In this document: one piece after another, positions 2-43,123 of the stretch
Layout: each line of letters begins with the position of its first letter
Numbering within the stretch: position 1 is the stretch's first letter
NCBI GenBank assembly: GCA_021513695.1
Contig: CP084166.1
Coordinates: forward strand, 608,001-672,000
DNA from: Candidatus Heimdallarchaeum aukensis
GTDB lineage: Archaea; Asgardarchaeota; Heimdallarchaeia; Heimdallarchaeales; Heimdallarchaeaceae
Length of the DNA: 64,000 bases
Direction of reading: 5' to 3'
Notes under the pieces: generated by a model
Seen by the model: only the letters and a program-made list of their open reading frames with translations
Told to the model about the DNA's origin: nothing
The model's database searches: none
Position numbers and translations under genes: made by a program

Positions 2-547
2 ATTTTCAAAATTGTACTTATTGGTGATGGCGCAGTAGGAAAAACTTCTATTAGAATGCAATATATGGGATACGGATTCAATACCAGTCATCTTATGACC
101 CTGGGAGCAGATTTTTCATCTATTGATAAAGAAATTATTCCTAACGAAAAATGGAAATTTCAAATTTGGGATTTAGCAGGACAACAAATGTTTGAACAAG
201 TTCGAGCTCGTTTTTACAAAGGAGCTCAGGGTGCCTTACTTGTCTTTGATATCACTCGCCCTTCCTCTTTTCAAAACCTTCCCATGTGGTTAAACGAATT
301 GTATAAATTCAACGGATCAGGAGTTGTCCCTGTTGTAGTCCTTGCTAATAAGAGTGATTTGAGAGATAGAAAAAGTGTTAAATTCAAACATGTAGAAAAA
401 TATGTTTCTGAATTAAATCTGCGTACCCAACGCTATGGTGTAACTAATTATTGTTTAGAAACAAGTGCCAAGACTGGATTAAACATCGATAGAGCTTTTG
501 AAATTCTCGGGAGAAGCATTCGAGATAAATCAAGCAAAAAAACATAA
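2..547 (+). CDS. Rab/Ras-family small GTPase (5' end cut by window edge)
   Basis: The frame is open from nt 2. Motifs: IFKIVLIGDGAVGKTS (G1 P-loop), TLGADF (switch I), WDLAGQ (G3), LANKSD (G4), ETSAK (G5). YKGAQGALLVFDIT resembles Rab YYRGAxG. There is no C-terminal Cys lipidation motif; the tail is polybasic (KSSKKT). Confidence 0.9.
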   Translation: MFKIVLIGDGAVGKTSIRMQYMGYGFNTSHLMTLGADFSSIDKEIIPNEKWKFQIWDLAGQQMFEQVRARFYKGAQGALLVFDITRPSSFQNLPMWLNELYKFNGSGVVPVVVLANKSDLRDRKSVKFKHVEKYVSELNLRTQRYGVTNYCLETSAKTGLNIDRAFEILGRSIRDKSSKKT

Positions 548-628
548 TACCCAATACATTAATTTTTTATACTTTAAGTGATTCTTTTAAGTATATACTA
601 ATAAACGAAAGATTCTGAGGAAAAACCA

Positions 629-1195
629 ATGCTCACATTTAAGATCCTTTTTATAGGCGATAATAGCGTAGGTAAAACTACTTTATTTAAAAAAATTGTT
701 CAAAATGAAAAAAATAAAGAAAAGATCCCTTCTCTAAAAGCAGAAATAGTAAAAGTTTATCGTACAATCCAAGGAGAAGAAGTAGCTTTTGAACTATATG
801 ATTTACCTGCGAGAGAACTTTTATCATCTCCTCAAAGAACAAAATGGTATTTAGGGACTGATGGAGCGTTTATAGTTTTTGACATTACAAAAGCAGAAAC
901 GTTCAGAAGAGTAACATTCTGGCTAGAACAATTAATAAATTATAACAGAAAAGGGAAGATACCTATAGTATTAGTAGGTAATAAAATAGATATGAGAGAC
1001 AATCCTAATGTGAGAAATAGGACACTAAACCCTATAGATGCTCAAGCTTTCTGTCTTCGACTAAATCGTACATCAGCTAGAGAAGGAATTAATAATGAAT
1101 TCTTCGAAGTCTCAGCAATCTCAGGGAAAGGTTTAACTCAATTACTTGATGCATTAGCTAAAAATATTTATAACCATCACAAAAAAATAAAATAG
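629..1195 (+). CDS. Divergent Ras-superfamily small GTPase with non-canonical G3 (DLPARE)
   Basis: Motifs: FIGDNSVGKTT (G1), GNKIDM (G4), VSAISG (G5). G3 reads YDLPARE instead of DxxGQ. The C-terminus is polybasic (HHKKIK). A GAGG-like motif lies about 10 nt upstream of the ATG. Confidence 0.85.
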   Translation: MLTFKILFIGDNSVGKTTLFKKIVQNEKNKEKIPSLKAEIVKVYRTIQGEEVAFELYDLPARELLSSPQRTKWYLGTDGAFIVFDITKAETFRRVTFWLEQLINYNRKGKIPIVLVGNKIDMRDNPNVRNRTLNPIDAQAFCLRLNRTSAREGINNEFFEVSAISGKGLTQLLDALAKNIYNHHKKIK

Positions 1196-1227: not shown

Positions 1228-1773
1228 ATGTTTTTAGTCGCTCACATTGGATATACTTTATTAACTGCTGAAATACTCGCACACCTATATTATTGGTTGT
1301 TCTTAAAGAAAAAGAATTTGGAGCCTACAGATAGTTGGGGAATAGTTCATTTTGCTTTTCTACCCCTCATAATAGGTGCTCTTGGTCCAGACATTATTGA
1401 TAAATTAATTTCAGAACCTATAACAGGTTATGGCAGGTATATTGGACATTCTATTCCGTTCGCTATATTGATATTTATTTTATTTATAGCCATTTTTTGG
1501 AAGAAACCAACAGTTTATTCAGCTTTGATTCTTGGGTGGATAATGCACATCATTCTGGATACAGCAGGTTTTATTCCCTGGTTTTTCCCTTTTGTAGAAT
1601 ACAACTTTCAATCAAAAACTCAAACATATATTGAGCTTCTTTTTCAACCATATGTTTACAATAACGAAATTGGAGGATTCCTGTGCATACTTTTTCTCGC
1701 AGTTCTTTACTTTAGAAGAGGTTTTACTCTCAGATCTTTTATTCAACATATCTTTACTTTCTCTCCTAAATAA
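1228..1773 (+). CDS. Membrane-bound metal-dependent hydrolase-like protein (YdjM/DUF457-like)
   Basis: Multi-pass hydrophobic protein with conserved-looking polar positions (N-terminal VAHIGY, GPDIIDK, IGHS, MHIILD) as I recall for DUF457. Assigned from memory of the family pattern only. Confidence 0.45.
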   Translation: MFLVAHIGYTLLTAEILAHLYYWLFLKKKNLEPTDSWGIVHFAFLPLIIGALGPDIIDKLISEPITGYGRYIGHSIPFAILIFILFIAIFWKKPTVYSALILGWIMHIILDTAGFIPWFFPFVEYNFQSKTQTYIELLFQPYVYNNEIGGFLCILFLAVLYFRRGFTLRSFIQHIFTFSPK

Positions 1774-1831
1774 TTTGAATAGATTTAAATAGTAGTCCAT
1801 TACTACTATAGTAGTAATAGGGCGATTGAGT

Positions 1832-3067
1832 ATGAAATATTGCACAAAATGTGGAACAAAAACACCAGAAGATGCAGTTTTTTGTTATGTATGTGGAACA
1901 AAAATTGATGATCTATCTGTTGATTTACAAAAATCAACAAAGGACAAAGTAAGCGATCACAGACATTACTATCCTCACTCTTCACAACAAATAGATGATA
2001 AATACTACAAAGATTATACCCACAAAGAACACGTTTTTCTTAAAATCTTAGCTATTGTCTTTATAATTGGAATGATCACTGCTTCTATTTCTTTATTTGC
2101 TGTTTTCAGCTCTTTCAGAATGGATGTCATTGGTACTCAAAATTACTATTTAGAAGAAGCAAACTCTAATGAAGTTTTTCTAAATATTTACAACGGTATT
2201 GGAGACATAGACATTATCTTTACTGATGATACAGACATAATGGTCGAAATAAATGTAATCGTATTAGGCAGAAAAAATGTTGATGAGTCAGAATTTGCGG
2301 AATTTAAAATAAATGATTATGAGAAAAATCTTACCATTGAGTTTGATTCTGGAGAACAAATCTTTTCTTTCTTTAATAAGAAAATTCTTGAATATGATAT
2401 TAGCATTACTTTAAACTCTAAACTAGTTCTATATGCAGATGTTCAGATGGAAACGGGAGACTTTTACTTGGACATCAATTGCCAAACAGCTAATATAAAC
2501 AATTTAAATATTGTAACAAAGACAGGTGATGTTAGCATTTATGCATATTCCACGGAAAATGTAACAATCAACAACGTATATCTAGTTTCCACAACTGGAC
2601 AAATTCAGTTTAGTTTAAGTGATGAAGGAGCAAATTACATCAGCAATGTATTTGCAACCACAACCACAGGAAAAATATTTTTCGATTTTGGTAGGAATAG
2701 TATATACAATGGAAATGAAATAGAACTTACAACAACTACAGGAAAAATAGTCCTATACTGCACTAACATGCAATATTTAGAAAATGTTACTTGGTTAATT
2801 TCTACAAGTACAGGTTCGGTTTATGCAAATATCACTCAAGATTTTATCATTGAAAAACAATTACAAATTTCTTTCTTTATTACAGTTAATACTGGGTCAA
2901 TAGAAATTCTTGCTGAATTCCACGATGATATTGGTTACCTTTTCGAAGCAACAACTGATACTGGAACAATTACAATTCCTGAACAATCTCCAAATTATGA
3001 TACTGCTTTAAACAAGTATTATTTTTCCTTAAGCACTGACACTGGAAACATAATGGCAGAATTGTAA
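1832..3067 (+). CDS. Zinc-ribbon / single-TM / DUF4097-like beta-helical repeat protein
   Basis: N-terminal CTKCGTKTPEDAVFCYVCGTKI zinc ribbon, then one TM (FLKILAIVFIIGMITASISLFAVF). After that come repeated [TS]TG-x-[IV]-x-[FIL] strands (TGDVSIY, TTGQIQF, TTGKIFF, TTGKIVL, STGSVYA, NTGSIEI, DTGTITI, DTGNIMA), typical of DUF4097 putative-adhesin repeats. The track start (TTG 1826) is replaced by the ATG at 1832. Confidence 0.7.
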   Translation: MKYCTKCGTKTPEDAVFCYVCGTKIDDLSVDLQKSTKDKVSDHRHYYPHSSQQIDDKYYKDYTHKEHVFLKILAIVFIIGMITASISLFAVFSSFRMDVIGTQNYYLEEANSNEVFLNIYNGIGDIDIIFTDDTDIMVEINVIVLGRKNVDESEFAEFKINDYEKNLTIEFDSGEQIFSFFNKKILEYDISITLNSKLVLYADVQMETGDFYLDINCQTANINNLNIVTKTGDVSIYAYSTENVTINNVYLVSTTGQIQFSLSDEGANYISNVFATTTTGKIFFDFGRNSIYNGNEIELTTTTGKIVLYCTNMQYLENVTWLISTSTGSVYANITQDFIIEKQLQISFFITVNTGSIEILAEFHDDIGYLFEATTDTGTITIPEQSPNYDTALNKYYFSLSTDTGNIMAEL

Positions 3068-16101: not shown

Positions 16102-18084
16102 TTAGGAAACTAAAGGTCTAACTTGATACTTTAGTCCTATAATTTTCATTATATCTACTGCATCTTCAATGGTGTTTGCTGATACTTCTAGTTCTTCAAT
16201 TATTTGATCTATATAGAGTATTTCTACTGTACTCATCTTTTCTGTCTCTGGAAGAAGTTTTTCTAGAGCTTTATGATTATTTATGTCTAATTCATGTTCT
16301 ATAGCATGTACATCGTTAAATATTGGATGAGAAGCAAGTGGTTGAATGCATACTACTTCTAATACTTCTACTGCTTTGTCGATCAAGTCGCATAGTAAAT
16401 CACACTCTTTTCTCAAGTATTGGGCAAAATAATCTTCTATTTTCTCTCTTGGAATATAGAGTATTTTCCTTAGAGAGCGTAAGATGTAACCTATCGCTTT
16501 ATCGAGTGTTGTTGTAAGTTTGTAAAAGTGGTAGTCATCTGGAGCAGGTCTAACACTGCTGTACATTACTTGAGTAACCTTAAATACAAGATCATCTGCA
16601 CGCCTTTCTTCTTCTTTTGCTTCCCTCATAAGTTTAATGGCTTGTTCTTTATCGCCATCCAAATATTTCTTAAATGACTGAGCTAGTAAATGAATTGTTT
16701 TCTGTACTTTTTCTGCGTGTTTTATTGAATGAGAGGCTTGCACCCATCCTGGTCTTGTTTCTATTGCTAATATTAAGAATGATAAGCCAAGAATGATTAA
16801 TAGTATTCCACTTACTAAGAAAGGAAATTTGAAGACATTACTAACTACACTATTGCCTAGAAACTGTAATGATTCAAAATTTACTACTAGTCCTGCTAAA
16901 CCGAGTACAAGTAAAGGTCCAGTGAAGTAGCCTGAATCTAAAGATGAGCGATAAACACCTATACTTTTTTCTCTTTTTATTATAGGAACAACATCCTTTG
17001 TTATACTTGGAAGAGAAGGATAATACAGAGAAGTACCTAGTCCAGCAAGCAAAGTTAATAATACTACAACTCCAAAAACATCAGTGAATATAATCAGTAT
17101 AATACTAGATCCAGCAAGAATAAATCCAAGTATCATAGGTGTTTTTCTTCCAATTCTATCGCTTAATTTACCCGTGAAAGGCATACTTATTGACCAAGCT
17201 AAAGTGAAAACTGAGGTGGCTATACCAATTTGTACATTAGAAAAACCGTAAACAGTTGATAATAGGAGCGGAAAAATCAAAACTAGAATACTATCTGTTA
17301 TTCTAGAAATGTGTCCTCCCAAATTTGCTAAGATTAGTGTTGGAACTCTAAAAATATTTTTTGTACTCCATCTACTTTCCACTTTTGTTGCATCCAACAG
17401 TACTGAATCTTTTGTTCCTGCAACCAGATCTGTAGTTTCTACATTCTTAATAAATACAAAACCAAAAGCTAGAGCTGTTCCTGCAATTATTAAAGCAAAG
17501 ATGAAAGTTTCAGCAAAACCTAAGTTATTTGCTATCACACCTGCTAAGAATGAACCTAAACTTGAGCCTAAGTACACTGAAAATTCCATTGAACCCACTG
17601 AAAAAGCTGCTCCTTCGTAACCTGCAATATCAGTGAGTGCTGACATAGTCGAAGTAAAGAGTAAACCTAATCCCCCTCCGATGAAAGCGTTACCTAAAGG
17701 TAAAGCCCATAAGTTTCTTGAAAATGCTAAAGCGAATGAACCACAAAGAAGCAATATTAGTCCTATTCTAATAGTCCATTTTCGTTGATATTTGTCACTA
17801 ATAGATGAGCTAAAGAATCCTGCTATACCTTTAAATAGCCCATAAGCTATTACAGCAGAAGATATTTGGAGAAAAACTATGAAACTTTTTTGGAAATTTT
17901 CTTTTGATTCAAAGAGAGGAAAATCGGTAAATGATTCACCAAAGAGAGAAAGAGAGGTTCTTTGAACACCATAAGCTATACCTGCAAAAAGTAGTACAGT
18001 AATTATTGGTCCCCACTTGGAGATAGACTTTAAAAATGAGAAACTTTCCAGCTTTTTTTCTTTCATTTCCATACAATTATTCAA
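16102..18084 (-). CDS. MFS transporter fused to a C-terminal PhoU_div/DUF47-like helical domain
   Basis: Twelve-TM-like profile with MFS motif A in both halves (SDKYQRKWTIRIG, LSDRIGRKTPMILG). The C-terminal ~210 aa are soluble and helical: KLMREAKEEERRADDLVFKVTQVMYSSVRPAPDDYHFYKLTTTLDKAIGYI, resembling the DUF47 pattern E-x-E-x-x-AD...P-x-D-x-x...L-x-x-x-LD-x-I. Confidence 0.75.
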   Translation of the reverse strand: MNNCMEMKEKKLESFSFLKSISKWGPIITVLLFAGIAYGVQRTSLSLFGESFTDFPLFESKENFQKSFIVFLQISSAVIAYGLFKGIAGFFSSSISDKYQRKWTIRIGLILLLCGSFALAFSRNLWALPLGNAFIGGGLGLLFTSTMSALTDIAGYEGAAFSVGSMEFSVYLGSSLGSFLAGVIANNLGFAETFIFALIIAGTALAFGFVFIKNVETTDLVAGTKDSVLLDATKVESRWSTKNIFRVPTLILANLGGHISRITDSILVLIFPLLLSTVYGFSNVQIGIATSVFTLAWSISMPFTGKLSDRIGRKTPMILGFILAGSSIILIIFTDVFGVVVLLTLLAGLGTSLYYPSLPSITKDVVPIIKREKSIGVYRSSLDSGYFTGPLLVLGLAGLVVNFESLQFLGNSVVSNVFKFPFLVSGILLIILGLSFLILAIETRPGWVQASHSIKHAEKVQKTIHLLAQSFKKYLDGDKEQAIKLMREAKEEERRADDLVFKVTQVMYSSVRPAPDDYHFYKLTTTLDKAIGYILRSLRKILYIPREKIEDYFAQYLRKECDLLCDLIDKAVEVLEVVCIQPLASHPIFNDVHAIEHELDINNHKALEKLLPETEKMSTVEILYIDQIIEELEVSANTIEDAVDIMKIIGLKYQVRPLVS

Positions 18085-27679: not shown

Positions 27680-30600
27680 ATGAAAAAGAAGACAATAACT
27701 TTGATCTTTATACTGTTAATAATGATTCAAGTATCTTCTTTATTTATAGAAACAGAAGCTTCAAATTACATATATACTCAACTTAAGTGGAGAAAAATAT
27801 CAAGCTACAATTATGGAGAAGCTTCTTTCTTTGACTATGATAAAGACGGAAAATTAGATGTTTTTTTTAAAACAGCAGAAGGCATAGAAATTTACAATCA
27901 TAAAGGAAATCTATTAAAGAAAATTCATGGTTATTTCCAATATACCCCCACAATTACAGACCTAGAAAAAGATGGAGATTTAGAGTTTATTACTCAAAAC
28001 TACTATGGAATAGAAATATACGATTCTACCGGACAATTAAAAGAACAGAACTTAACTTTATATAGTGCCTACGCGAGAATTGTGGTTGCAGACATTAACA
28101 ATGACGGGATACAAGAAATAATTTATCATTCCACAGGTGATATAATATGCTTCAACAATCAATTAGAAGAAATTTGGAGCTATAAATTTGAAAATCCAGA
28201 CTATTATGGAAGTATTTATGATCTCGTAGTTAATTCAGATGCAGATTCTGAAAAAGAAATTGTAGTTTATTATGACAACTCGATTTATCTATTTAATACA
28301 GATGGTGAAAAAAAATGGTCAAAATCCTTACCTTCTGAAGGAATTGTCGCTTATGATTTTAATGATGATGGTATAGATGAAATAATTGGAACCAAATCAT
28401 CAGATTACACAATTTACTCTTTAAACAGTCAAGATGGTTCTGAATTGTGGATTAATGAAATGGCTGTAAACTTAAACCCTTTGCCTATTGACCTTGATCA
28501 AGATGGAATTGTAGAATTAATAGCTCTTTCTACTGATAATGACAAGTCTGAATCTTATATTAATTATATCAATGGAAAAACAGGAGAAGTAGAAGAACAG
28601 GTAACTGTAGATCAAAGATTCTTTACTAATTCATATTACGAATTCTTTCCTGAAACTCCAGCTGTAGGAGATTTTGATGGTAATGGGGTGTTGGACCTTA
28701 TCTTTCTTGCTTTTTCATATGCTTATAGTGTTGCTACACTGATTTATTCTGCAGATGGGTATAGAATAGCAGAATTTGACGAGGGTTCACTAACAACTCC
28801 AACAATTGTTGACCTGGATGGTAATGGAAGAACAGAAATAATGATACGTGATTATTCAGGAATATTCTGCTATGAGGTTACTGGATCAACTTCTGGAAAA
28901 AATATCTGGTATAAAGAAAGAGGAAATATAGCTAATACAATGGTAGTAGATACAGATGGAGACTTGCTAGATGATATAAGCGAAGAATTTTATGGTTCAG
29001 ATAAAGGAAAAGAAGATACTGACGGTGATACCCTTTTAGACGGAATAGAGATAATTGGTTCTGGTTCTTCACCTATAAAACAAGACACTGATGGAGATGG
29101 TTTAACAGATGATGTTGAATATGAATTAGGTTTCAACCCAAGATTAAATGACTTAGATTTGGATTATGATGATGATAGTTTAACCAATTATGATGAAGTA
29201 TTTGTTTATTCAACAAATCCTATGTCTAATGATACAGATAACGATTTACTACTTGATAATGAAGAAATTAATACTTATGGAACGTCTCCAACAAACAACG
29301 ACACAGATGCAGATGGTGTTATTGATGGAGAAGAAGTACATACTTACGGAACATCACCATTAGATAATGATTCAGATGACGATGGAATGGAAGACGGATA
29401 TGAAGTCTTATACAACTTAGATCCTCTTGTAAATGATAGTTATGGAGATATTGACTCAGATGGTTTGTTAAATATTGAAGAGTTTACATACAATTCAAAC
29501 AGTTCAAATGTAGACACAGATAATGACACAATTTCAGATGGTGATGAAGTTCATACTTATGGAACGTCTCCAACAAACAATGATTCTGATGGAGATAATC
29601 TCACAGATAATGAAGAAATTTATACTTATGGAACGTCTCCAACAAACAACGACACAGACGCAGATATTATGTGGGATGGTTGGGAGATTGAATATGGATT
29701 TAATCCCTTAATCGACGATGGAGATGAAGATTTAGATTCTGACGGTCTTTCCAATGCTGAAGAATTTATTTATTCAACAGAGCCTAACAATACTGACTCA
29801 GATTCTGACCAACTCCTTGATGGAGAAGAAGTACATACTTATGGAACAGACCCTGCTAAAATTGATAGTGACGAGGATGAGCTTACTGATTATGAAGAAG
29901 TTATAGTTTATACAACAAATCCTGTGTCTAACGATACTGATAATGACTTAATGGGTGATTATTATGAGGTTAATCATGGTTTAAACCCCCTTGTAAACGA
30001 TACTTTAGGCGATCTTGACAATGATACTCTAACAAATTATGAAGAATTTTTACTTGGTACTTTACCTAATAACAATGATACTGATGGAGATGGAATGAGT
30101 GATGGTTTTGAGTATCAATATGGACTAATTTTAACTGACAATGATTCTTCATTGGACAAGGATAAGGATGGTTTATCTAACCTTGACGAATTTTTACATA
30201 ATACCAACCCTCTCTCTAATGATACTGATGGAGATGGAATGTTTGATGGTTTTGAAGTGCAATATAACCTTAACCCAAATTTAAATGATTCTGCAGGAGA
30301 CCCTGATGCTGATGGAATATCAAATATTGATGAAATGAAATATGGTTCATCACCAATTAGCTCTGATACAGACAGTGACCGTCTAACCGATCCTGAAGAG
30401 ATATTCATCTATCACTCTAATCCTGCAATAAAAGATACAGATGGAGATGGTTTAGAAGATGGAGAAGAAGTACTTGATTTTGGTACAAGCCCAACTAACG
30501 AGGATACAGACGGGGACACTCTTAGTGACTATGTAGAGATTTATGTTTTCCTCACTGACCCAACAGACCCTGATACAGATAACGATGGAATGAATGATGG

Positions 30601-31624
30601 AGAAGAAATAGAAATAGGAAAAGATCCGCTTACTAAAAACTACTACACACCACTTTCTAAACTTCTACTTATATTGCCTATTGTTGGAGGAATAGTCCTC
30701 TTTGGTGGCTTAATATATGGAGCTATGATTTTTTCTAAGAAAATTAAAGAGAGAAAGCGTAAAGAGATAGTAGAAAAAGAGATTCTGTTGCTTAAATCTG
30801 AGCATCTAAATTTAGATGACAGGATAAACATTCTAGCAAAAAAAGAATCTATTTTTACTGATAAAATCACTTTTCGCTCTTTGGTTGATGTGACTAAACT
30901 CTATTTCAACTTTCTTGCAAAATTTGACGATAAATACACTTTAATTACTAAATTCAAAGAAGTTGGTAATCTTCAGGAATGGAATGAAGTGAAGGAGAAA
31001 GCTTTTTCATCCTTTGAACGGCTATTAAATACAATAAAAGACAATCTCCATTCCTTTGACATAAACGACATAATAAAGAATCAGTATCCTTCACTAATAA
31101 ATCTTGAAAAGAAAGGCGAACTAACAGCAAAAGAACTCTTACAAGTTCATTCTGATGGAAAAGATTTACACCTCTATGTTGAAGAATTCAAAAAATATCT
31201 AAAGATTTTACTAAGAAGATTGAACGCTTTAGAATCTCTCTTTTCAACTAAAGATGAGCTTTTGGATATTGTTGCTTCAAGTTCAATTATTACTGCTCTA
31301 AAAGAAAAAGATTCATTAATTACTCAACTAGAGAGGAACGAGATCAAATATGTTCGAGAAAAAATAAATGCAGAAAATCATTGTATTTACTGTGGTATTC
31401 AACTACATGATGATGCTAAAACATGTTCAAACTGCCAACGCACTCTTCCTTCTTGCCCTATTTGTAAAAATACTTTCAGATTCTTTGATGAAGTCTATAC
31501 TTGTCCCGAATGCTTTTCAAAGATTCATAAAGATGAACTGGAGATTTGGTTAGGAGATAAAGGAACTTGTCCTAAATGTAACAAATCTATTACTTTATAC
31601 AACTTAGATGTTGAAATAATCTAA
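27680..31624 (+). CDS. Giant type-I membrane protein: FG-GAP/integrin-alpha-like propeller + thrombospondin-type-3-like Ca-binding repeats + TM + coiled-coil + Cys-rich zinc module
   Basis: Signal peptide (ITLIFILLIMIQVSS). Seven or more D-x-[DN]-x-DG-x-x-[DE] FG-GAP-type loops (DYDKDGKLDV, DLEKDGDLEF, DINNDGIQEI, DFNDDGIDEI, DLDQDGIVEL, DFDGNGVLDL, DLDGNGRTEI). About 25 D-[TS]-D-x-D-x-[LMI]-x-D-x-x-E repeats. TM is LLLILPIVGGIVLFGGLIYGAMIF. The C-terminal zinc module is listed separately. Confidence 0.9.
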   Translation: MKKKTITLIFILLIMIQVSSLFIETEASNYIYTQLKWRKISSYNYGEASFFDYDKDGKLDVFFKTAEGIEIYNHKGNLLKKIHGYFQYTPTITDLEKDGDLEFITQNYYGIEIYDSTGQLKEQNLTLYSAYARIVVADINNDGIQEIIYHSTGDIICFNNQLEEIWSYKFENPDYYGSIYDLVVNSDADSEKEIVVYYDNSIYLFNTDGEKKWSKSLPSEGIVAYDFNDDGIDEIIGTKSSDYTIYSLNSQDGSELWINEMAVNLNPLPIDLDQDGIVELIALSTDNDKSESYINYINGKTGEVEEQVTVDQRFFTNSYYEFFPETPAVGDFDGNGVLDLIFLAFSYAYSVATLIYSADGYRIAEFDEGSLTTPTIVDLDGNGRTEIMIRDYSGIFCYEVTGSTSGKNIWYKERGNIANTMVVDTDGDLLDDISEEFYGSDKGKEDTDGDTLLDGIEIIGSGSSPIKQDTDGDGLTDDVEYELGFNPRLNDLDLDYDDDSLTNYDEVFVYSTNPMSNDTDNDLLLDNEEINTYGTSPTNNDTDADGVIDGEEVHTYGTSPLDNDSDDDGMEDGYEVLYNLDPLVNDSYGDIDSDGLLNIEEFTYNSNSSNVDTDNDTISDGDEVHTYGTSPTNNDSDGDNLTDNEEIYTYGTSPTNNDTDADIMWDGWEIEYGFNPLIDDGDEDLDSDGLSNAEEFIYSTEPNNTDSDSDQLLDGEEVHTYGTDPAKIDSDEDELTDYEEVIVYTTNPVSNDTDNDLMGDYYEVNHGLNPLVNDTLGDLDNDTLTNYEEFLLGTLPNNNDTDGDGMSDGFEYQYGLILTDNDSSLDKDKDGLSNLDEFLHNTNPLSNDTDGDGMFDGFEVQYNLNPNLNDSAGDPDADGISNIDEMKYGSSPISSDTDSDRLTDPEEIFIYHSNPAIKDTDGDGLEDGEEVLDFGTSPTNEDTDGDTLSDYVEIYVFLTDPTDPDTDNDGMNDGEEIEIGKDPLTKNYYTPLSKLLLILPIVGGIVLFGGLIYGAMIFSKKIKERKRKEIVEKEILLLKSEHLNLDDRINILAKKESIFTDKITFRSLVDVTKLYFNFLAKFDDKYTLITKFKEVGNLQEWNEVKEKAFSSFERLLNTIKDNLHSFDINDIIKNQYPSLINLEKKGELTAKELLQVHSDGKDLHLYVEEFKKYLKILLRRLNALESLFSTKDELLDIVASSSIITALKEKDSLITQLERNEIKYVREKINAENHCIYCGIQLHDDAKTCSNCQRTLPSCPICKNTFRFFDEVYTCPECFSKIHKDELEIWLGDKGTCPKCNKSITLYNLDVEII
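27800..28930 (+). other. FG-GAP (integrin-alpha-like) beta-propeller region
   Basis: Periodic Ca-binding loops as listed for the parent CDS. Boundaries are approximate. Confidence 0.6.
28949..30640 (+). repeat. Thrombospondin type 3-like calcium-binding repeat array (coding)
   Basis: Repeated DTDGDGLxDGxE / NDTDNDxLxDxxE units. It includes three 28-nt identical DNA copies at 29271, 29553 and 29622. Confidence 0.8.
31382..31600 (+). other. Cytoplasmic Cys-rich zinc-binding module (zinc ribbon + RING-like element)
   Basis: CIYC-x11-CSNC is followed by CPIC-x12-CPEC-x4-H-x13-CPKC. The segment IHKDELEIWLGDKGTCPKC resembles the C-terminal half of RING-H2 fingers (H..C/x..WL....CPxC). Confidence 0.5.
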
Positions 31625-33433: not shown

Positions 33434-36400
33434 TCATTTTTTTATTTCTAAATAGCCTAAATTGTAAAGAATTTGGAGATAAGATAGAGTTTTTCCTCTT
33501 TCTATGTCATCTTCAATTTTATTAATTAACTCTTCAATGAGGAAAAAGTCATTTTTATTCAGATATTTTTCTAGTTGTTTTTCTAAATACTTGCTTTGCT
33601 TAATTTTTTTAGAATCTCTAACTTTTATGGGGTTCTTCATCCATAAGTAAAGAAATGAGTTACATTTTTCTATAATTTCCTCCTTTTTACCATTAAATAC
33701 AGATGGATCCCCATTCCAACCTTCCGCATAGCTGTGAAAATTAGCTTCAAACCAAAGAATAATTGATTGAATGCTTAAATCTATGTCTAAAGTAATATCA
33801 GTTTCTGAAAACACATAAATCACAAAATGATCAGTTCGTGCGCTAGTCACTACAAAATTTTGATATTGAATCTTTCTTATATCTCCGGAACCTTTCTCTG
33901 TTAATTCATTTCCTATTGAAGAAATTGCTTGAAAGAAGCCTGATATAAGTGTTGAATCTCTTTGGAAGTCTGAACCCAAATCCACTTCAAAAATAGAAAT
34001 GGATGTTTCTTGATGGACAATTATTATCTTTTTTATTGAGTTAATCTTTAAATAATCATTATATGTAGAAATGTAAAATTCATTTGCTTTTCTTTTCCTA
34101 ATAACAAGCAAATAGAAAATTAGGAAAGCAATAGAAGAGGTTAGAATTGGTAAAATTATAAATAATAACATTTTTACTAAAAATAAATATGGATCTTTCC
34201 CATTTGGTGAATTAGGATTTGTAGGAGAGGGGGGAGATGTAGGAGTAACAGGATTAACAATTAGTTTAAAACCTAAAGTGATTTCAGAAGAGGAGGTATT
34301 AAGTTTAAAGTTTTCTTTTGTAATTTCTAAATCTAGAGAAAAGTTCCCTGATTGTATTCCTAATTTTGAGATATTTAAGGAAATATTTGTGTATTCATCA
34401 GTATTGATTACATTATAATATTCTGATAAGACTGTAATTCCATTCATTTTAATCTTTATATTTTCGCTAAATATAGGAATGATATTTTTATCATTGTCAG
34501 TTTCATTTGTAATCCTAAATGAAATATTTGCTATCAAATTCTGTTCTAATACAAACTCATTTTCTAAAGGATATAAGAGAGAGAAACCCATTTTGAAAAA
34601 GATTCTTAAGTAAATTGTCTTTGATTGATTATGATAATAAGAACTATTAAAAATAATGTCTATTGACTGAATTCCTACAGGAGAACTCAGAGAAACATTG
34701 GTGAAATAATAGTCTCCTAAATAAGAAAATTCTCCATTCGTCTTCCAGCTTGTATTAAACAGAATCTTTTCATTACTGATATATGTGAAAGAATAATTTG
34801 AATTCAGATTAGAAAGAGAGTAAATCCAACTTCTTATTGATAATTTCTCTCCACTAAATCGTTCCACAAGTGTTTCATTTGTCCAATTATCAGAAAAAGA
34901 TTCTACTTGCCATATAGTTTCAAGTCTTGCATAAGCTTTAACCTCTACACTTTTAGTTAGAAAACCAACTTCAGTCCCATTTTTCCAGTAAACAAAGATA
35001 GTCCATTCTCCAGGTGTATCAGAATTTTCAAATGAAGGATCGAGAGTAATATTTGTATAGAATTGATTATTCGATGAATCTAAACTACCAATAGTTGTAT
35101 AGCTAGAATTGTCAATATATTTTAATAAAGAAGAGATATTTGCTTTTATTGGGCTAATTTCTCCGTTTGGATTAAATAATGTAAAATTGATTATTCCAGA
35201 GCTTTCATTGTTTAACAAACTAGTGGAAAGATCTAGTTTAGAACCTTCATAACCATAAAAGTAATTATCTCCTTTTATCCAATATCCGAGATTGATTTCA
35301 TTTTGATCACTAGAAAAAACAGTAAGGCTGGTAACATAGTTAGGACTAGTTGTTTGTAAAGTAAAGTTACAAGCTTCTAAAGAATTATTAAGTTGAAGTC
35401 TATAGATATTATTTAATTTTAAGGTTGAGAGAGAGAAAGTTTTATTCATAACAGTTCGAGCATCATTAACAGACCAATCTTCTTGTGAAAAAATATCGAT
35501 TACTCTCTCGAATAGGAAGTAGGAAGTCACATTTGCTGAAGGCAGTTCCCAAAATATTTCCCAGTTAATTTCTCTTTCAGTAGTTTCATTACTTACACTA
35601 TAGAAAGAAATAGCATCCATGTCTCTGTAAAAAAGATAAGTGTTATTTATCTCTAAAATAATTGAAGTATTTGCTGTGACTACTTGAACACCAGAATTAG
35701 AAAGAGGGCTATTAAAAGATAAAATTTGTTCTCCATTAACTTGTAAATATAGTTCAAGAGGATTATTGAATAAAAGGTTATTTCCATTTTCGTCTGTTGG
35801 ACATATATCCACTATCAAAGACAAATCAAAAGAAGCTACAAATGGTTGCCAACCTCCGCTTTCTTCAAAATAAAAAGTTTTTCCATCATCAGAAGCCTTT
35901 CTTCCTCTCCAGATGAAAGAACTATCGCTACTATTGTCTATAATTGATAAATTAGCAACTAAAAAATATTGGCCTTTCTCTAATACTGTGGGGTTAAATT
36001 CATAATATGAAAAACTTCCTCCTAATAAGTTGTAATTTGATTCATTAAAAGGATTAGACAAAGCTTCAGTAAGAATATGATTCATATCAGGATATCCTGT
36101 CTGATTAGCCTTAACAACAAATAGATCAAGAGAATTATTTCCTAATCCTGTACCATAATCTACTTCTAAACTTATATTTATTCCATAAAACATTGCGTGA
36201 TCCCAAAAAATTTCAAATTCTTGAGCAAGCCCTATATAATCGAAATAAGAGATTGTACCATCAGTTTTCAAGTCGTCTCCCTCTATTACGTAGAAGTCTC
36301 TAATCCCTTCTATTTTTTCAATCATTAGTGTTAGGTCTTCATTAGGAAAATCGGATATTGGTTCGATAACAAAACTATTAGATCGTGAATTAGCTAAATC

Positions 36401-36667
36401 TAAAGTAAGATTCTCATATTGAGAAGTGATTATTGTGTCATAAACTGACAAATTTTTGCCTTTATCTGAAATAGAATTTATCTGAATATTATTTATAAAG
36501 ACAAGGTTTTCATCTATGTTTGTGGGTGAATAGTCTGTTTTGGGAGTAAAATTATTTTCTTTCATCTTTGAATTGAAAAAGTTTCCTTTTAAGGTAGAAA
36601 AAGGTAAAAGTATGGCAATAATAAAGAACACAATAAATAATACTTTTTTCCTTTTTACACCTTGCAA
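33434..36667 (-). CDS. Giant surface protein (signal anchor, ~800-aa N-glycosylation-sequon-rich ectodomain, Pro-rich stalk, TM) with cytoplasmic longin-like module
   Basis: N-terminal anchor VLFIVFFIIAILLPF. Dozens of N-x-S/T sequons. Stalk PVTPTSPPSPTNPNSPNG. TM LLFIILPILTSSIAFLIFYLLVI followed by RKRK (positive-inside). The cytoplasmic tail is IIIVHQETSISIFEVDL..STLISGFFQAISSIGNEL..IRKIQYQNFVVTSARTDHFVIYVF. Confidence 0.85.
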   Translation of the reverse strand: MQGVKRKKVLFIVFFIIAILLPFSTLKGNFFNSKMKENNFTPKTDYSPTNIDENLVFINNIQINSISDKGKNLSVYDTIITSQYENLTLDLANSRSNSFVIEPISDFPNEDLTLMIEKIEGIRDFYVIEGDDLKTDGTISYFDYIGLAQEFEIFWDHAMFYGINISLEVDYGTGLGNNSLDLFVVKANQTGYPDMNHILTEALSNPFNESNYNLLGGSFSYYEFNPTVLEKGQYFLVANLSIIDNSSDSSFIWRGRKASDDGKTFYFEESGGWQPFVASFDLSLIVDICPTDENGNNLLFNNPLELYLQVNGEQILSFNSPLSNSGVQVVTANTSIILEINNTYLFYRDMDAISFYSVSNETTEREINWEIFWELPSANVTSYFLFERVIDIFSQEDWSVNDARTVMNKTFSLSTLKLNNIYRLQLNNSLEACNFTLQTTSPNYVTSLTVFSSDQNEINLGYWIKGDNYFYGYEGSKLDLSTSLLNNESSGIINFTLFNPNGEISPIKANISSLLKYIDNSSYTTIGSLDSSNNQFYTNITLDPSFENSDTPGEWTIFVYWKNGTEVGFLTKSVEVKAYARLETIWQVESFSDNWTNETLVERFSGEKLSIRSWIYSLSNLNSNYSFTYISNEKILFNTSWKTNGEFSYLGDYYFTNVSLSSPVGIQSIDIIFNSSYYHNQSKTIYLRIFFKMGFSLLYPLENEFVLEQNLIANISFRITNETDNDKNIIPIFSENIKIKMNGITVLSEYYNVINTDEYTNISLNISKLGIQSGNFSLDLEITKENFKLNTSSSEITLGFKLIVNPVTPTSPPSPTNPNSPNGKDPYLFLVKMLLFIILPILTSSIAFLIFYLLVIRKRKANEFYISTYNDYLKINSIKKIIIVHQETSISIFEVDLGSDFQRDSTLISGFFQAISSIGNELTEKGSGDIRKIQYQNFVVTSARTDHFVIYVFSETDITLDIDLSIQSIILWFEANFHSYAEGWNGDPSVFNGKKEEIIEKCNSFLYLWMKNPIKVRDSKKIKQSKYLEKQLEKYLNKNDFFLIEELINKIEDDIERGKTLSYLQILYNLGYLEIKK
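33719..34033 (-). other. Longin-like domain, copy 3 (cytoplasmic tail of surface protein)
   Basis: It has the same strand-strand-helix(SGF-x-x-AI)-strand-strand-strand layout as copies 1 and 2. Confidence 0.45.
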
Positions 36668-41023: not shown

Positions 41024-43123
41024 ATGAGTAATACTGACAAAAAAATAGAGATTTTTAATAATCTTTTTTTAAAAATCAAAAAACAGATAATAGATAACCA
41101 GAGCAGTTCTAAACTTAAATTTGATGAAAGAGAAGTATTACTCAACTCATTTATTGTCTCAATAAAAACTCTTCTTATCAAAGAAATGTTTCTTAAGGAA
41201 GAAAAAGTTGAGATAGAAAAAAAAATTAATTTGAATTACTTTTTCATAGAATTAGATAATATCTTTAGAGAAATATTTACCGATGGCTCTTTCCGAAAAG
41301 CTGATTTAGAAATCATTAGAGAAAAATCAATACAACAACTGATTTTACAATACTTAGAAAGCAAAGACTCGATAATTATTGATTTAGCAGGAAAGGATTT
41401 ATTCTCTCAAATATATGAAACTGCCCTCAACAAAAATGAAAAAGATCAACTAGGCTTATTTTATACTCCTGAAATTATCGTTAATTATATCCTAAATTTA
41501 GTAAATTATAAGACTGATTCAGAAATTGTAAACAAAAAGATACTTGATCCAAGCTGTGGTTCAGGAAGTTTTCTAGTCAAATCTGTAAATAGGTTATTAC
41601 AAGCGTTAAAGAAAGAAAATTTAGAAGAAAGTGAAATTCTATACAAGATAAGAAATGCTGTTTTTGGTATAGACATTGATCCTATAGCTGTTTTTCTTTC
41701 TAAAACTAATATCCTATTCCAGATTTTTCCTTTATTTATCACCCTCTACAAAAAAAGAACTTTGACACAATTTCCTCCTTTGCATGTTTATTGTTTTGAT
41801 TCTCTAAACAAAAAAAGTAGAAATAAAGATACAACTTCTTTTAAGATTATTAATAGAGAAAAAGAGTTTACCTCAGGTTTTGATTTTATTGTTGGAAATC
41901 CTCCTTATATTGAATCTAAAAAAATGGATATTGAAACAAAGAAAAAATGTATAGAGAACTTTCCTGAAATTTGTAAAGGAGCTTTTGATATATACATCTG
42001 TTTTATTCAACTTGGTTTAGACTTACTTAGTGTAAATGGAAAGTTAGGTTTTATTATTCCAAACAAATTTCTTTCTGCTAACTATTCTAAAGCACTAAGA
42101 AAGAAGATTATCTATGAATTTGACATTCTACATCTAGTAGACCTTTCTTCTTCAAATATTTTTAAAAATGCAAGTGTTTATCCTATAATTATTTCAATTA
42201 AAAAAAGGAAATCTAAATCCGAAGGCATAAAAAATAACTTTTTGATAAGTAAAGTAGAAGGACAAATTACGAATATTGAGGAAATCAAAGGAATACCAAT
42301 AAATCAATCTTTTTTCAAAAAAACTGTTAATAACTTTATTTTTTCTTTTCCAAATGATTTAGACGAAGCAGAACTTGTAAAACGTTTAATTATGACTAGC
42401 CCTTTTAAACTTGGAGAATTCCTTAAGATTAGCTGGTCAGTTTCTTTCCATAGAAAAGGATTAAGAGAACAATTTGTTTTTACTAAAAATGTTGATGGTA
42501 ACTTTAGAAAAATTTTAGGTGGAAAGAAGTTTGGAGGAAATTCTGAAGTCAAAAGATATTTGATACAATGGGATGGTCATTGGATTGACTACAATAGAGA
42601 AAAAGCAAAAAGACTGAATAATCCCTTTCCTCCATTAAGTTTATTTAACAATGAAAAAATAATCATCTGTCAAAATAGCAAAAGAATTCGAGCTGTTCTA
42701 GACAAAGAAGGTTTCATTTGCAAAGATATTTTCTTTGTAGCTAAAATTACTCCAAAGACGCTAAATACAAGTCTAAATTATGAAGTGATATTATCTGTAA
42801 TTAATAGTAAACTAATGAGCTATTTATACGATAGAATTTTTTCTAGTACTCACGTTTCAGGAAGATATTTACACTATTTACCAACTTATTTACATTCACT
42901 TCCTTTTCCTAAACTGTCTGAAATAGAAAAAAAACAGTTACATGAGCTCACGAAGAAAATAATGAAAAAAGAGATAACAGAAAAGGATTTTATTAAAATA
43001 GATAAAGAAATTGATAAGATAATTTACAATGCATTTGGATTAGAAAATCATGAAATAGAAATAGTAGAAAAATATGTTTCATCGTATATGTCTTTAAAAA
43101 AATTAAAGGATATAAGAAAATAA
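41024..43123 (+). CDS. N6-adenine DNA methyltransferase, Eco57I/TaqI-like (gamma class) with C-terminal target-recognition domain
   Basis: LGLFYTPEIIVNYIL (motif X), ILDPSCGSGSFLV (motif I), FGIDIDPIAV, FDFIVGNPPYI (motif IV, NPPY). I recognised no PD-(D/E)xK nuclease motif and there is no neighbouring restriction gene. Confidence 0.85.
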   Translation: MSNTDKKIEIFNNLFLKIKKQIIDNQSSSKLKFDEREVLLNSFIVSIKTLLIKEMFLKEEKVEIEKKINLNYFFIELDNIFREIFTDGSFRKADLEIIREKSIQQLILQYLESKDSIIIDLAGKDLFSQIYETALNKNEKDQLGLFYTPEIIVNYILNLVNYKTDSEIVNKKILDPSCGSGSFLVKSVNRLLQALKKENLEESEILYKIRNAVFGIDIDPIAVFLSKTNILFQIFPLFITLYKKRTLTQFPPLHVYCFDSLNKKSRNKDTTSFKIINREKEFTSGFDFIVGNPPYIESKKMDIETKKKCIENFPEICKGAFDIYICFIQLGLDLLSVNGKLGFIIPNKFLSANYSKALRKKIIYEFDILHLVDLSSSNIFKNASVYPIIISIKKRKSKSEGIKNNFLISKVEGQITNIEEIKGIPINQSFFKKTVNNFIFSFPNDLDEAELVKRLIMTSPFKLGEFLKISWSVSFHRKGLREQFVFTKNVDGNFRKILGGKKFGGNSEVKRYLIQWDGHWIDYNREKAKRLNNPFPPLSLFNNEKIIICQNSKRIRAVLDKEGFICKDIFFVAKITPKTLNTSLNYEVILSVINSKLMSYLYDRIFSSTHVSGRYLHYLPTYLHSLPFPKLSEIEKKQLHELTKKIMKKEITEKDFIKIDKEIDKIIYNAFGLENHEIEIVEKYVSSYMSLKKLKDIRK

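What the first reader, a model, noticed from the sequence alone, without database searches (positions are those of the whole stretch)
800..817. Small GTPase naturally carrying Ras G60A/Q61R-equivalent substitutions in G3
In the GTPase at 629..1195, G1 (GDNSVGKT), G4 (NKID) and G5 (SAI) are intact, so nucleotide binding is expected. G3 reads D58-L-P-A-R-E where Ras-superfamily proteins have D-x-x-G-Q-E. In Ras, the Gly is needed for the GTP-driven switch II change and the Gln is the catalytic residue; Q61R is a classic GTPase-dead oncogenic change. The adjacent paralogue (2..547) has the canonical WDLAGQ. The pair could be one cycling GTPase and one constitutively GTP-locked or pseudo-GTPase partner.
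Basis: partly seen in the sequence, partly recalled or inferred. Interest (0 to 1): 0.5.

Follow-up and report, generated by a model that had tools for sequence, protein, structure and literature searches.

The report
Archaeal small GTPase with rewired switch
A Heimdall-group (Asgard) archaeon carries a small Ras-like GTPase that has lost the three residues normally needed to sense and hydrolyse GTP, yet it is conserved under strong selection and sits beside a normal sister GTPase and a membrane hydrolase, so it is probably a working non-standard GTPase, not a broken gene.

Summary
Bases 800..817 encode D58-L-P-A61-R62-E63 in a 188-aa Ras-family protein ("B", 629..1195) that keeps intact G1, G4 and G5 motifs.

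It is not strain-specific decay:
- B defines a sharply separated orthogroup found only in Heimdallarchaeaceae.
- The G3 motif across the group is D-[LFI]-P-[GAR]-[RK]-E. A basic residue replaces the catalytic Gln in every member.
- Gly60 has been lost in three separate branches. The switch-I Thr is Ser or Ala throughout.
- dN/dS is 0.03-0.06.

In B, conservation has moved from the switch face to the alpha3/alpha4 face. The upstream paralogue A keeps every motif invariant in the same genomes.

B is nearly always followed, 12-120 nt downstream, by a YdjM-family metal-dependent membrane hydrolase. It is usually preceded by A.

My best reading is a nucleotide-binding, hydrolysis-impaired, non-canonical GTPase (pseudoGTPase class ii/iii-like) that acts as a fixed partner of the membrane protein and/or of A. 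The main rival is that Arg62 is a working gamma-phosphate sensor or catalytic residue, as R1398 is in LRRK2.

No biochemistry or complex prediction was possible.

Verdict: new variant of a known kind, moderate interest.

The parts
2..547 (+). GTPase A: canonical Ras-family paralogue (GDGAVGKT, switch-I MTLGADF, WDLAGQ, NKSD, ETSAKT). About 6 N-terminal residues are cut off by the window edge.
   Evidence: Pfam Ras 4e-40. The full-length orthologue is in L005. All G motifs are invariant in 9 genomes. Identity between genomes is 73-85%.
548..628 (+). Conserved A-B intergenic element. It holds a T6 run, two TATA-like boxes, two near-palindromic CTTT(T)AAGT motifs, and a GAGG ribosome-binding site at 616..619. 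It is probably B's own promoter and operator.
   Evidence: It is 93% identical to the Ca. H. endolithica PR6 locus, while fourfold-degenerate sites of the flanking genes are 43-73% identical. About 52 consecutive bases are invariant. The function is inferred only.
629..1195 (+). GTPase B: 188-aa single-domain Ras-superfamily protein with non-canonical switch residues. This is the subject of the finding.
   Evidence: The AF2 model has pLDDT 92. Foldseek finds Rab, Ras and Ran structures at E about 1e-14. dN/dS is 0.03-0.06.
656..679 (+). G1 / P-loop, G10-D-N-S-V-G-K-T17. GxxxxGK[ST] is kept. The Ras-12 and Ras-13 positions are variable and often bulky (N, T, P, V, Y).
731..733 (+). Ser35, the switch-I Thr35 equivalent. 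It is Ser or Ala in every orthologue.
800..817 (+). G3 motif D58-L-P-A61-R62-E63 (family pattern D-[LFI]-P-[GAR]-[RK]-E).
980..991 (+). G4 motif N118-K-I-D121, the guanine-specificity motif. N, K and D are invariant.
1019..1072 (+). B-specific near-invariant blocks R131-T-L-N-P-I-D137 and R144-L-N-R-T148, on helix alpha4 and its N-terminal cap. This is a candidate constitutive interaction surface.
1112..1117 (+). G5 motif S162-A163. It is invariant except in one clade, which has S-T.
1228..1773 (+). YdjM-family (PF04307) polytopic membrane protein. Invariant residues are H6, E15, G-P-D55-x-I-D58-K, H74, H107 and D111. It is a putative metal-dependent hydrolase and the conserved downstream neighbour of B.
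   Evidence: Pfam YdjM 3e-12, 46.6 bits against a cut-off of 29. Alignment. Adjacent to B. Weak similarity to Zn-dependent phospholipase C.

Best explanation
Gene 629..1195 encodes a functional, selected, non-canonical small GTPase specific to Heimdallarchaeaceae. It most likely arose as a fast-evolving offshoot of the A-type Asgard GTPases.

At the base of the group the catalytic Gln was replaced by Arg/Lys. After that, the two canonical gamma-phosphate 'spring' residues became dispensable. Thr35 became Ser or Ala. Gly60 was lost in three separate branches.

The guanine-nucleotide pocket (G1, G4, G5 and the Mg-linked Asp58) was kept.

I infer that B binds guanine nucleotide more or less permanently. 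It would have very slow hydrolysis or none, no GAP-type arginine-finger regulation, and no classical switch-I/II effector cycle.

I also infer that it works as a stable regulatory or adaptor subunit, using its conserved alpha3/alpha4 face to bind the co-encoded YdjM-family membrane hydrolase and/or the canonical paralogue A. A would then supply the real on/off switching.

Shown here:
- the residues;
- their conservation and the selection on them;
- the shift of constraint away from the switch face;
- the gene linkage.

Inferred only:
- the nucleotide state;
- the lack of hydrolysis;
- the physical partners.
For: 1. Conservation. The orthologues form a clade that scores 150-413 bits to B, while the best non-member scores about 93 bits. 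Only two representatives and one fragment exist among 1.84 billion representative proteins. G3 across the clade reads DLPARE, DFPRRE, DIPGRE, DIPGKE or DIPAKE.

2. Selection. dN/dS is 0.03-0.06. The Ala61 codon varies synonymously (GCG, GCA, GCT) while the residue is kept.

3. Nucleotide pocket. GxxxxGK[ST], D58 and NKxD are invariant, and G5 SA is kept in all members but the L081/L083 clade, which has S-T.

4. Shift of constraint. Mean pairwise column identity over the same 8 genomes is:
- switch I: 0.45 in B, 0.88 in A;
- alpha1: 0.30 in B, 0.74 in A;
- G5 region: 0.53 in B, 0.97 in A;
- beta4-alpha3: 0.66 in B, 0.64 in A;
- alpha4 plus insert: 0.61 in B, 0.54 in A.
The blocks RTLNPID and RLNRT are nearly invariant in B.

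5. Known effect of the same changes in Ras. H-Ras T35S and G60A mutants mainly adopt the open 'state 1' and have drastically impaired intrinsic GTPase activity (PMC4867591).

6. Linkage. YdjM lies directly downstream of B in 6 of the 7 lineages where that region is on the contig, with a gap of 12-120 nt. No YdjM homologue lies beside any of the roughly 60 other GTPase loci fetched. B and YdjM diverge at similar rates (44-66% and 42-68% identity), while A is at 73-85%.

7. Precedent. Recognised pseudoGTPase classes include nucleotide binders without catalysis (Rnd) and proteins with divergent G motifs and residual catalysis (RGK) (PMC5593906; PMC11733253).
Against: - No biochemical data exist, and no complex model could be run.
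- The strict retention of a basic residue at position 62 and of Glu63 argues that the site is used, not merely dead.
- In LRRK2, Arg at this position promotes hydrolysis.
- RGK proteins with similarly degenerate motifs still hydrolyse GTP.
- One lineage (L011) lacks YdjM next to B.
- One clade lacks A upstream.
- The conserved A-B intergenic element suggests that A and B are not one simple operon.
- The AF2 model cannot show the nucleotide state.
Confidence: 0.5

Rival explanations
1. B is a fully working, cycling GTPase that uses a different chemistry. The invariant Arg/Lys62 acts in cis as a gamma-phosphate sensor and catalytic residue, as proposed for R1398 of the LRRK2 ROC domain. It would replace both Gln61 and the Thr35/Gly60 sensors. 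The motif changes would then be a rewiring, not a loss.
For: A basic residue is present at this position in all 14 orthologues examined, and Pro60 and Glu63 are invariant. A merely dead site would be expected to drift.

A 2026 Research Square preprint on LRRK2 reports that R1398, the Q61 equivalent, is modelled to contact the gamma-phosphate. It also reports that R1398H and R1398A lower kcat and weaken GTP-state binding (PMC13345514).

The more basal-looking members still read D-x-P-G-R-E, with Gly retained. B also matches Pfam Roc at 2e-17.
Against: - Two lineages have Lys instead of Arg.
- Gly60 was lost three times and Thr35 is lost everywhere.
- In H-Ras each of these changes alone drastically lowers GTPase activity.
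- Switch I is the least conserved part of B, which is unexpected for a protein that signals through a nucleotide-dependent switch.
- B has no COR domain or other dimerisation module like the one ROC uses.
Confidence: 0.3
2. A and B form an obligate heterodimer of one cycling and one locked GTPase. This is the reader's idea, and it is functionally like RagA/B-RagC/D or hydrolysing/non-hydrolysing septin pairs. YdjM would be only a bystander neighbour.
For: A lies directly upstream of B in the window and in L001, L002, L004, L005, L007, L011, L014, L081 and L083. The A and B trees are congruent, so the two genes have been inherited together. A is among B's best non-self matches.
Against: - In the most widely sampled B clade (P0008 cluster, 18 members) the upstream gene is an Arf-like 303-aa GTPase, not A.
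- Neither protein has a roadblock or other C-terminal dimerisation domain.
- A strongly conserved intergenic element with TATA-like boxes separates A from B.
- No interaction evidence of any kind could be obtained.
Confidence: 0.25
3. B no longer binds nucleotide at all. It would be a class i pseudoGTPase, a pure scaffold like CENP-M or AAGAB.
For: Three catalytic or switch positions are degenerate. Class i pseudoGTPases exist from bacteria to humans.
Against: GxxxxGK[ST], Asp58 and NKxD are invariant, and SA is nearly so, across about 40-60% sequence divergence. Class i examples lack these motifs.
Confidence: 0.05
4. The motif is strain-specific decay, a sequencing error, or a pseudogene.
For: None found.
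Against: The same motif is present in independent assemblies from NCBI, JGI, ENA and Logan. The reading frame is intact. dN/dS is 0.03-0.06. The Ala codon varies synonymously.
Confidence: 0.01

Closest known systems
LRRK2 ROC domain (Arg1398 at the Ras Gln61 position)
   Same: It is a Ras-like G domain with a naturally occurring Arg in place of the catalytic Gln. Basal B members keep Gly before the Arg, which I believe matches LRRK2 (from my own knowledge). B matches Pfam Roc. In LRRK2 the Arg is proposed to sense the gamma-phosphate and help catalysis.
   Different: - B is a free-standing 188-aa protein with no COR, kinase or repeat domains.
- B also lacks the switch-I Thr and, in this window, Gly60.
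- Some members have Lys.
- The origin is independent (archaeal, family-restricted).
- The cited preprint found Arg at this position only in LRRK2 among the 20 Roco proteins it compared, and states that classical Ras-family GTPases keep Gln there.
RGK family (Rad, Gem/Kir, Rem, Rem2); pseudoGTPase class iii
   Same: These are Ras-superfamily proteins that diverge at several G motifs. They bind nucleotide, do not undergo the normal conformational switch, and regulate a membrane protein complex. That their G3 lacks Gly60 and Gln61 is from my own knowledge.
   Different: - The motifs differ.
- RGK proteins have long N- and C-terminal extensions and are metazoan.
- There is no specific sequence relationship. 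B's best PDB matches are Rab, Ran and Ras.
Rnd1-3 / RhoH; pseudoGTPase class ii
   Same: They have an intact nucleotide pocket, a degenerate switch-II/catalytic region, and are permanently GTP-bound without hydrolysis.
   Different: They belong to the Rho family and have the Rho insert and a prenylated C-terminus. They keep Thr35 and Gly60 (own knowledge). B's nucleotide state is unknown.
H-Ras T35S, G60A and Q61R laboratory or oncogenic mutants
   Same: B naturally combines the equivalents of all three. T35S and G60A drive Ras into the open 'state 1' with drastically impaired GTPase activity.
   Different: Those are single mutations in a protein optimised for switching. B has had long co-adaptation, with an invariant Pro60 and Glu63 and a changed alpha3/alpha4 surface. 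Mutant phenotypes need not transfer.
Asgard Rab-like, Rag-like and Arf-like small GTPases (Tran et al. 2024; Vargova et al. 2024)
   Same: Same superfamily and the same phylum-level source. B shares with many of them the longer spacing between G4 and G5.
   Different: The text passages I searched in those papers do not mention non-canonical G3 motifs. Tran et al. report that in the Loki-group strain MK-D1 (not a Heimdall genome) small GTPases are generally not in operons with roadblock, longin or TRAPPC3 genes. B has a fixed gene neighbourhood.

Membership tests
Ras superfamily small GTPase (Pfam PF00071 / TIGR00231) | Profile match above the curated cut-off, and a G-domain fold | tested here: met
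   Pfam Ras 91.3 bits against a cut-off of 21.6. TIGR00231 73.5 bits against 42.5. AF2 pLDDT 92. Foldseek matches to Rab, Ras and Ran structures at E about 1e-14, probability 1.00, TM 0.7-0.8.
Ras superfamily small GTPase | G1 GxxxxGK[ST], G4 [NT]KxD, G5 SA[KL]-like | tested here: met
   GDNSVGKT, NKID and SAI. G1 and G4 are invariant in the orthogroup, and G5 SA is kept in all but the L081/L083 clade (S-T).
Ras superfamily small GTPase | G2 conserved Thr (Ras Thr35) | tested here: not met
   Ser35 in the window. Ser or Ala in all orthologues.
Ras superfamily small GTPase | G3 DxxGQ (Gly60 and catalytic Gln61) | tested here: not met
   DLPAR here. The family pattern is D-x-P-[GAR]-[RK].
Rab family (the name NCBI gives to orthologue P0002) | C-terminal Cys prenylation motif | tested here: not met
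   The protein ends ...NIYNHHKKIK with no Cys. RabF/RabSF motifs were not tested. The 'Rab' name is an automatic annotation.
ROCO proteins (Roc-COR) | Roc G domain followed by a COR domain in the same polypeptide | tested here: not met
   B is a 188-aa single domain. There is a Pfam Roc hit but no COR, and the next gene is YdjM.
Rag/Gtr heterodimeric GTPases | C-terminal roadblock dimerisation domain | tested here: not met
   Neither A (about 187 aa) nor B (188 aa) has sequence beyond the G domain. Only A gives a Gtr1_RagA hit, over its G domain.
PseudoGTPase class ii (binds nucleotide, no catalysis) | Retains nucleotide binding | tested here: inconclusive
   The sequence motifs for binding are intact. 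Binding itself was not measured.
PseudoGTPase class ii (binds nucleotide, no catalysis) | No GTP hydrolysis | not testable with these tools
   Needs an enzyme assay. The substitutions predict impairment by analogy with H-Ras. LRRK2 and RGK show that this inference can fail.
YdjM family (PF04307), for the partner gene 1228..1773 | Profile match above the curated cut-off, with conserved His/Asp residues | tested here: met
   46.6 bits against a cut-off of 29. H6, D55, D58, H74, H107 and D111 are invariant in 14 sequences. Hydrolase activity was not tested.

The most novel reading that the evidence does not exclude
B is a permanently GTP-loaded regulatory subunit of a membrane-embedded hydrolase related to zinc phospholipase C (the YdjM protein). 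Arg/Lys62 would be an independently evolved, LRRK2-like gamma-phosphate clamp, and the canonical paralogue A would be the upstream switch. That would be an archaeal small-GTPase-to-lipid-hydrolase module in the closest known relatives of eukaryotes. It would also be the first Asgard small GTPase whose membrane partner can be read from gene order.
Probability: 0.15. Interest if true: 0.7.

Novelty: new variant of a known kind. Interest (0 to 1): 0.42.

Why it matters
Asgard archaea encode large sets of Ras-like GTPases, which are central to ideas about how eukaryotic membrane trafficking began. Almost none has a known partner. One structural survey notes that gene order in the Loki-group strain MK-D1 rarely helps to find one.

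This locus offers a conserved three-gene arrangement: a canonical GTPase, a rewired GTPase, and a membrane hydrolase. That gives concrete, testable partner predictions.

It is also a natural experiment. A Ras-like protein has lived for a long time with the equivalents of T35S, G60A and Q61R. It independently reaches the Arg-for-Gln solution that a 2026 preprint found only in LRRK2 among the 20 Roco proteins it compared.

The limits are real. The family is confined to one archaeal family, and nothing about its biochemistry is known.

Tried and rejected
- **A-B heterodimer prediction.** I tried a linker-fused, paired alignment and then a read-through of the window.
- **Species-representative genomes.** The scan returned only one locus, Ca. 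Heimdallarchaeum endolithica PR6. Most orthologues came from the metagenome scan and from exact-protein look-ups.
- **Literature on YdjM/DUF457.** The top hit was a word-start match to 'DUF4579' in a CRISPR Cap1 paper and is irrelevant. No functional study of the family was found.
- **YdjM against PDB by sequence.** No match at E up to 1.
- **The G4-G5 insert shared by A and B as proof of tandem duplication.** Rejected. The same longer spacing is common among the other top-scoring GTPases.
- **Other GTPase paralogues in the window.** None besides A and B.
- **tRNA and Rfam scans of the window.** Nothing found.
- **Papers mentioning both Asgard and pseudoGTPase.** None in the searchable library.

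Full report
**1. The observation**

The ORF 629..1195 (+) starts at an ATG, 9 nt after a GAGG ribosome-binding site, and encodes 188 aa. It is a Ras-family G domain:
- Pfam Ras 6e-26, Roc 2e-17, Arf 4e-14.
- TIGR00231 above its cut-off.

Bases 800..817 read gat tta cct gcg aga gaa, which is D58-L-P-A61-R62-E63. HMMER alignments to RabA1a and Rab35 put DLPARE on DTAGQE. So A61 corresponds to Ras Gly60 and R62 to Ras Gln61.

The upstream ORF 2..547 is cut by the window edge. It is a canonical paralogue with GDGAVGKT, MTLGADF, WDLAGQ, NKSD and ETSAKT.

The switch-I Thr35 equivalent is Ser35 (I-P-S-L-K against Rab I-T-T-I-G). The Ras Gly12 and Tyr32 equivalents are Asn12 and Lys32.

An AF2 model is confident (pLDDT 92, pTM 0.89). 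It has a Rab/Ras/Ran-like fold, and its lowest confidence is in residues 61-70, the switch II region.

**2. Is it conserved or is it decay?**

A word-indexed search of 5.8 billion proteins found relatives at 98, 63, 61 and 50% identity by BLASTP (64, 62 and 49% in the MAFFT alignment). All read DLPARE or DFPRRE. One is annotated as coming from Candidatus Heimdallarchaeaceae.

An exhaustive profile search of 1.84 billion representative proteins found only two representatives and one fragment of the group. After those, scores drop to generic small GTPases. Window B scores 150-413 bits to group members, and the best non-member scores about 93 bits.

Further members came from three sources:
- a metagenome scan;
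- exact-protein look-ups;
- a search that started from the downstream gene.

The closest complete genome is Ca. Heimdallarchaeum endolithica PR6, at 96% amino-acid identity in the tblastn match. The window probably comes from a sister species of that genus. That is my inference from the divergence values.

The G3 motif in 14 orthologues is:

| Motif | Where |
|---|---|
| DLPARE | Heimdallarchaeum clade, L001, L002 |
| DFPRRE | L004, L015 |
| DIPGRE | L012, L013, L078, L014; the 18-member P0008 cluster |
| DIPGKE | L011 |
| DIPAKE | L081, L083 |

So Asp, Pro, a basic residue at the Gln61 position, and Glu are universal in the group. Gly60 is retained in some lineages.

On a neighbour-joining tree, Gly60 is replaced in three separate branches: Ala twice and Arg once. 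Each replacement is one nucleotide step from GGN. The switch-I position is Ser or Ala in every member.

dN/dS for B is 0.03-0.06 between the window and two close relatives, the same range as A and the downstream gene. The Ala61 codon differs synonymously between lineages (GCG, GCA, GCT).

This is a selected state, not decay.

**3. Where the constraint lies**

I compared A and B over the same eight genomes, using mean pairwise column identity.

| Region | B | A |
|---|---|---|
| P-loop | 0.61 | 0.88 |
| alpha1 | 0.30 | 0.74 |
| switch I | 0.45 | 0.88 |
| switch II | 0.53 | 0.78 |
| G5 region | 0.53 | 0.97 |
| beta4-alpha3 | 0.66 | 0.64 |
| beta5/G4 | 0.81 | 0.84 |
| alpha4 plus insert | 0.61 | 0.54 |

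A is most conserved in the P-loop, switch I, switch II and G5. That is the signature of a working switch that must fit regulators and effectors.

B is least conserved in alpha1 and switch I. It is as conserved as A, or more so, in beta4-alpha3, beta5/G4 and alpha4 plus the following insert. Two blocks in that last region are nearly invariant: R131-T-L-N-P-I-D137 and R144-L-N-R-T148.

The Ras-12 and Ras-13 positions of B's P-loop are variable and often bulky (N, T, P, V, Y). In Ras such residues would obstruct a GAP arginine finger (own knowledge). A has an invariant Gly-Ala there.

Overall, A is 73-85% identical between these genomes, and B is 44-66%.

**4. Neighbourhood**

The following loci all show the order A, then B, then a YdjM-family (PF04307) membrane protein, usually followed by a class-V aminotransferase and a P-type ATPase: the window, L001, L002, L004, L005, L007, L008, L081/L082 and L083.

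In the P0008 clade (L012, L013, L078/L079), B and YdjM are adjacent. There the upstream gene is an Arf-like 303-aa GTPase instead of A. L011 has A and B but no YdjM.

B is therefore followed by YdjM in 6 of the 7 lineages where the downstream region is on the contig. The gap is 12-120 nt. None of the roughly 60 other GTPase loci fetched has a YdjM homologue.

The YdjM subfamily is also confined to Heimdallarchaeaceae in the search. It diverges at about the same rate as B, at 42-68% identity.

Its invariant residues are H6, E15, G-P-D55-x-I-D58-K, H74, H107 and D111. These fit the 'metal-dependent hydrolase' label that NCBI gives it.

Two weak signals hint at a relationship to the zinc phospholipase C superfamily. 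They prove nothing.
- Five of 14 members give sub-threshold Pfam Zn_dep_PLPC hits over the His/Asp region.

The A-B spacer (548..628) is 93-95% identical between species whose fourfold-degenerate sites are only 43-73% identical. It contains about 52 invariant bases, including a T6 run, TATA-like boxes and two CTTT(T)AAGT near-palindromes.

I read this as a separate, regulated promoter for B, with B and YdjM co-transcribed. This is inference.

**5. How it most likely works**

What is shown:
- The nucleotide-pocket motifs are kept.
- The three residues that canonical small GTPases use to sense the gamma-phosphate and position the catalytic water are replaced.
- The replacement is old and selected.
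- The switch face is no longer the conserved face.
- The gene is linked to a membrane protein and usually to a canonical paralogue.

Established knowledge:
- H-Ras T35S and G60A each favour the open 'state 1' and drastically lower intrinsic GTPase activity (PMC4867591).
- Proteins of this kind are classed as pseudoGTPases. Class ii binds nucleotide without catalysis (Rnd). Class iii has divergent motifs but residual catalysis (RGK) (PMC5593906; PMC11733253).

My best explanation (confidence about 0.5) is that B is a nucleotide-bound GTPase with slow or no hydrolysis that does not switch in the classical way. It would serve as a stable subunit, bound through its alpha3/alpha4 face to YdjM and/or A. 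A would provide the switching.

The main rival (about 0.3) is that Arg/Lys62 is a working cis gamma-phosphate sensor and catalytic residue. This is what a 2026 preprint proposes for LRRK2 R1398 (PMC13345514). The invariance of the basic residue and of Glu63 favours some direct role at the nucleotide. The Lys variants, the repeated loss of Gly60 and the poorly conserved switch I argue against a full classical cycle.

The two readings overlap. Arg62 could clamp the gamma-phosphate and so stabilise a long-lived GTP state.

The other readings are weaker:
It is weakened by the clade that lacks A upstream.
- A protein that binds no nucleotide is unlikely.
- Decay is excluded.

**6. Comparison with known systems**

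B is a member of the Ras superfamily by profile and by fold. It fails two defining motifs, G2 Thr and G3 DxxGQ.

It is not a member of these families:
- Rab in the strict sense, because it has no prenylation Cys.
- ROCO, because it has no COR domain.
- Rag, because it has no roadblock domain.

It resembles LRRK2 ROC in the Arg-for-Gln change. It resembles RGK and Rnd proteins in being a motif-degenerate nucleotide binder. It resembles the H-Ras T35S/G60A/Q61R mutants residue for residue.

The passages I searched in two recent Asgard GTPase papers do not mention such motifs. No paper in the searchable library combines 'Asgard' with 'pseudoGTPase'.

An unrelated single-domain GTPase (P0105, DIAARE) shows that the Ala-Arg pair has arisen at least once elsewhere.

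**7. Verdict**

This is a new, narrowly distributed variant of the known class of atypical or pseudo small GTPases. The useful new fact is its fixed gene neighbourhood.

Interest is moderate, at 0.42. It would rise if B proves to regulate the membrane hydrolase.

Noticed in passing
window 548..628: The spacer between the two GTPase genes is 93-95% identical across species whose silent sites are only 43-73% identical. About 52 bases are invariant, including a T6 run, two TATA-like boxes and two CTTT(T)AAGT near-palindromes. It is probably a regulated archaeal promoter/operator for B.
   Followed up: partly
[not shown]
   Followed up: partly
L001 2690..3889; L078 6771..7028: One lineage has two tandem YdjM copies (63% identical) after B. 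Another has a short second YdjM-like fragment downstream.
   Followed up: no
L080 4001..4525 (protein P0105): An unrelated 174-aa small GTPase reads WDIAARE, the same Gly-to-Ala and Gln-to-Arg pair, but it keeps the switch-I Thr and has no YdjM neighbour. This looks like an independent origin of the motif.
   Followed up: partly
proteins P0036, P0053, P0025: Multi-G-domain proteins, some with C-terminal CC prenylation motifs and so probably eukaryotic, combine canonical DTAGQ domains with a degenerate domain reading DLPAGK, DLPAKS or DMPKKE. This is a fused version of the 'normal plus degenerate G domain' theme.
   Followed up: no
L078 1..4909; L012 624..1595: In the DIPGRE clade the genes upstream of B are Arf-like GTPases of about 300 aa. 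They carry a roughly 125-aa C-terminal extension with no Pfam match. Three such genes cluster in L078.
   Followed up: partly
window 1826..3067: A 413-aa protein with an N-terminal zinc ribbon and a hydrophobic, probably membrane-spanning stretch sits between YdjM and the aminotransferase. It is there only in the closest relatives (window, L005) and is absent from that position in L001, L004, L078 and L081.
   Followed up: no
window 16102..18084 (-): A 660-aa protein gives both an MFS transporter match and a C-terminal PhoU_div (DUF47) match, which is an unusual fusion.
   Followed up: no
window 33434..36667 (-); 43940..45670 (+): Two large ORFs (1077 aa and 576 aa) have no Pfam match at E up to 1e-5.
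   Followed up: no
window 41024..43123 (+); 27680..31624 (+): The first ORF is an Eco57I/MmeI-like methyltransferase with a TaqI-like specificity domain, probably a type IIG restriction-modification enzyme. The second is a 1314-aa protein with FG-GAP and bacterial TSP3 repeats. The window also holds several TPR proteins. No tRNA or Rfam RNA was found anywhere in the 64 kb.
   Followed up: no
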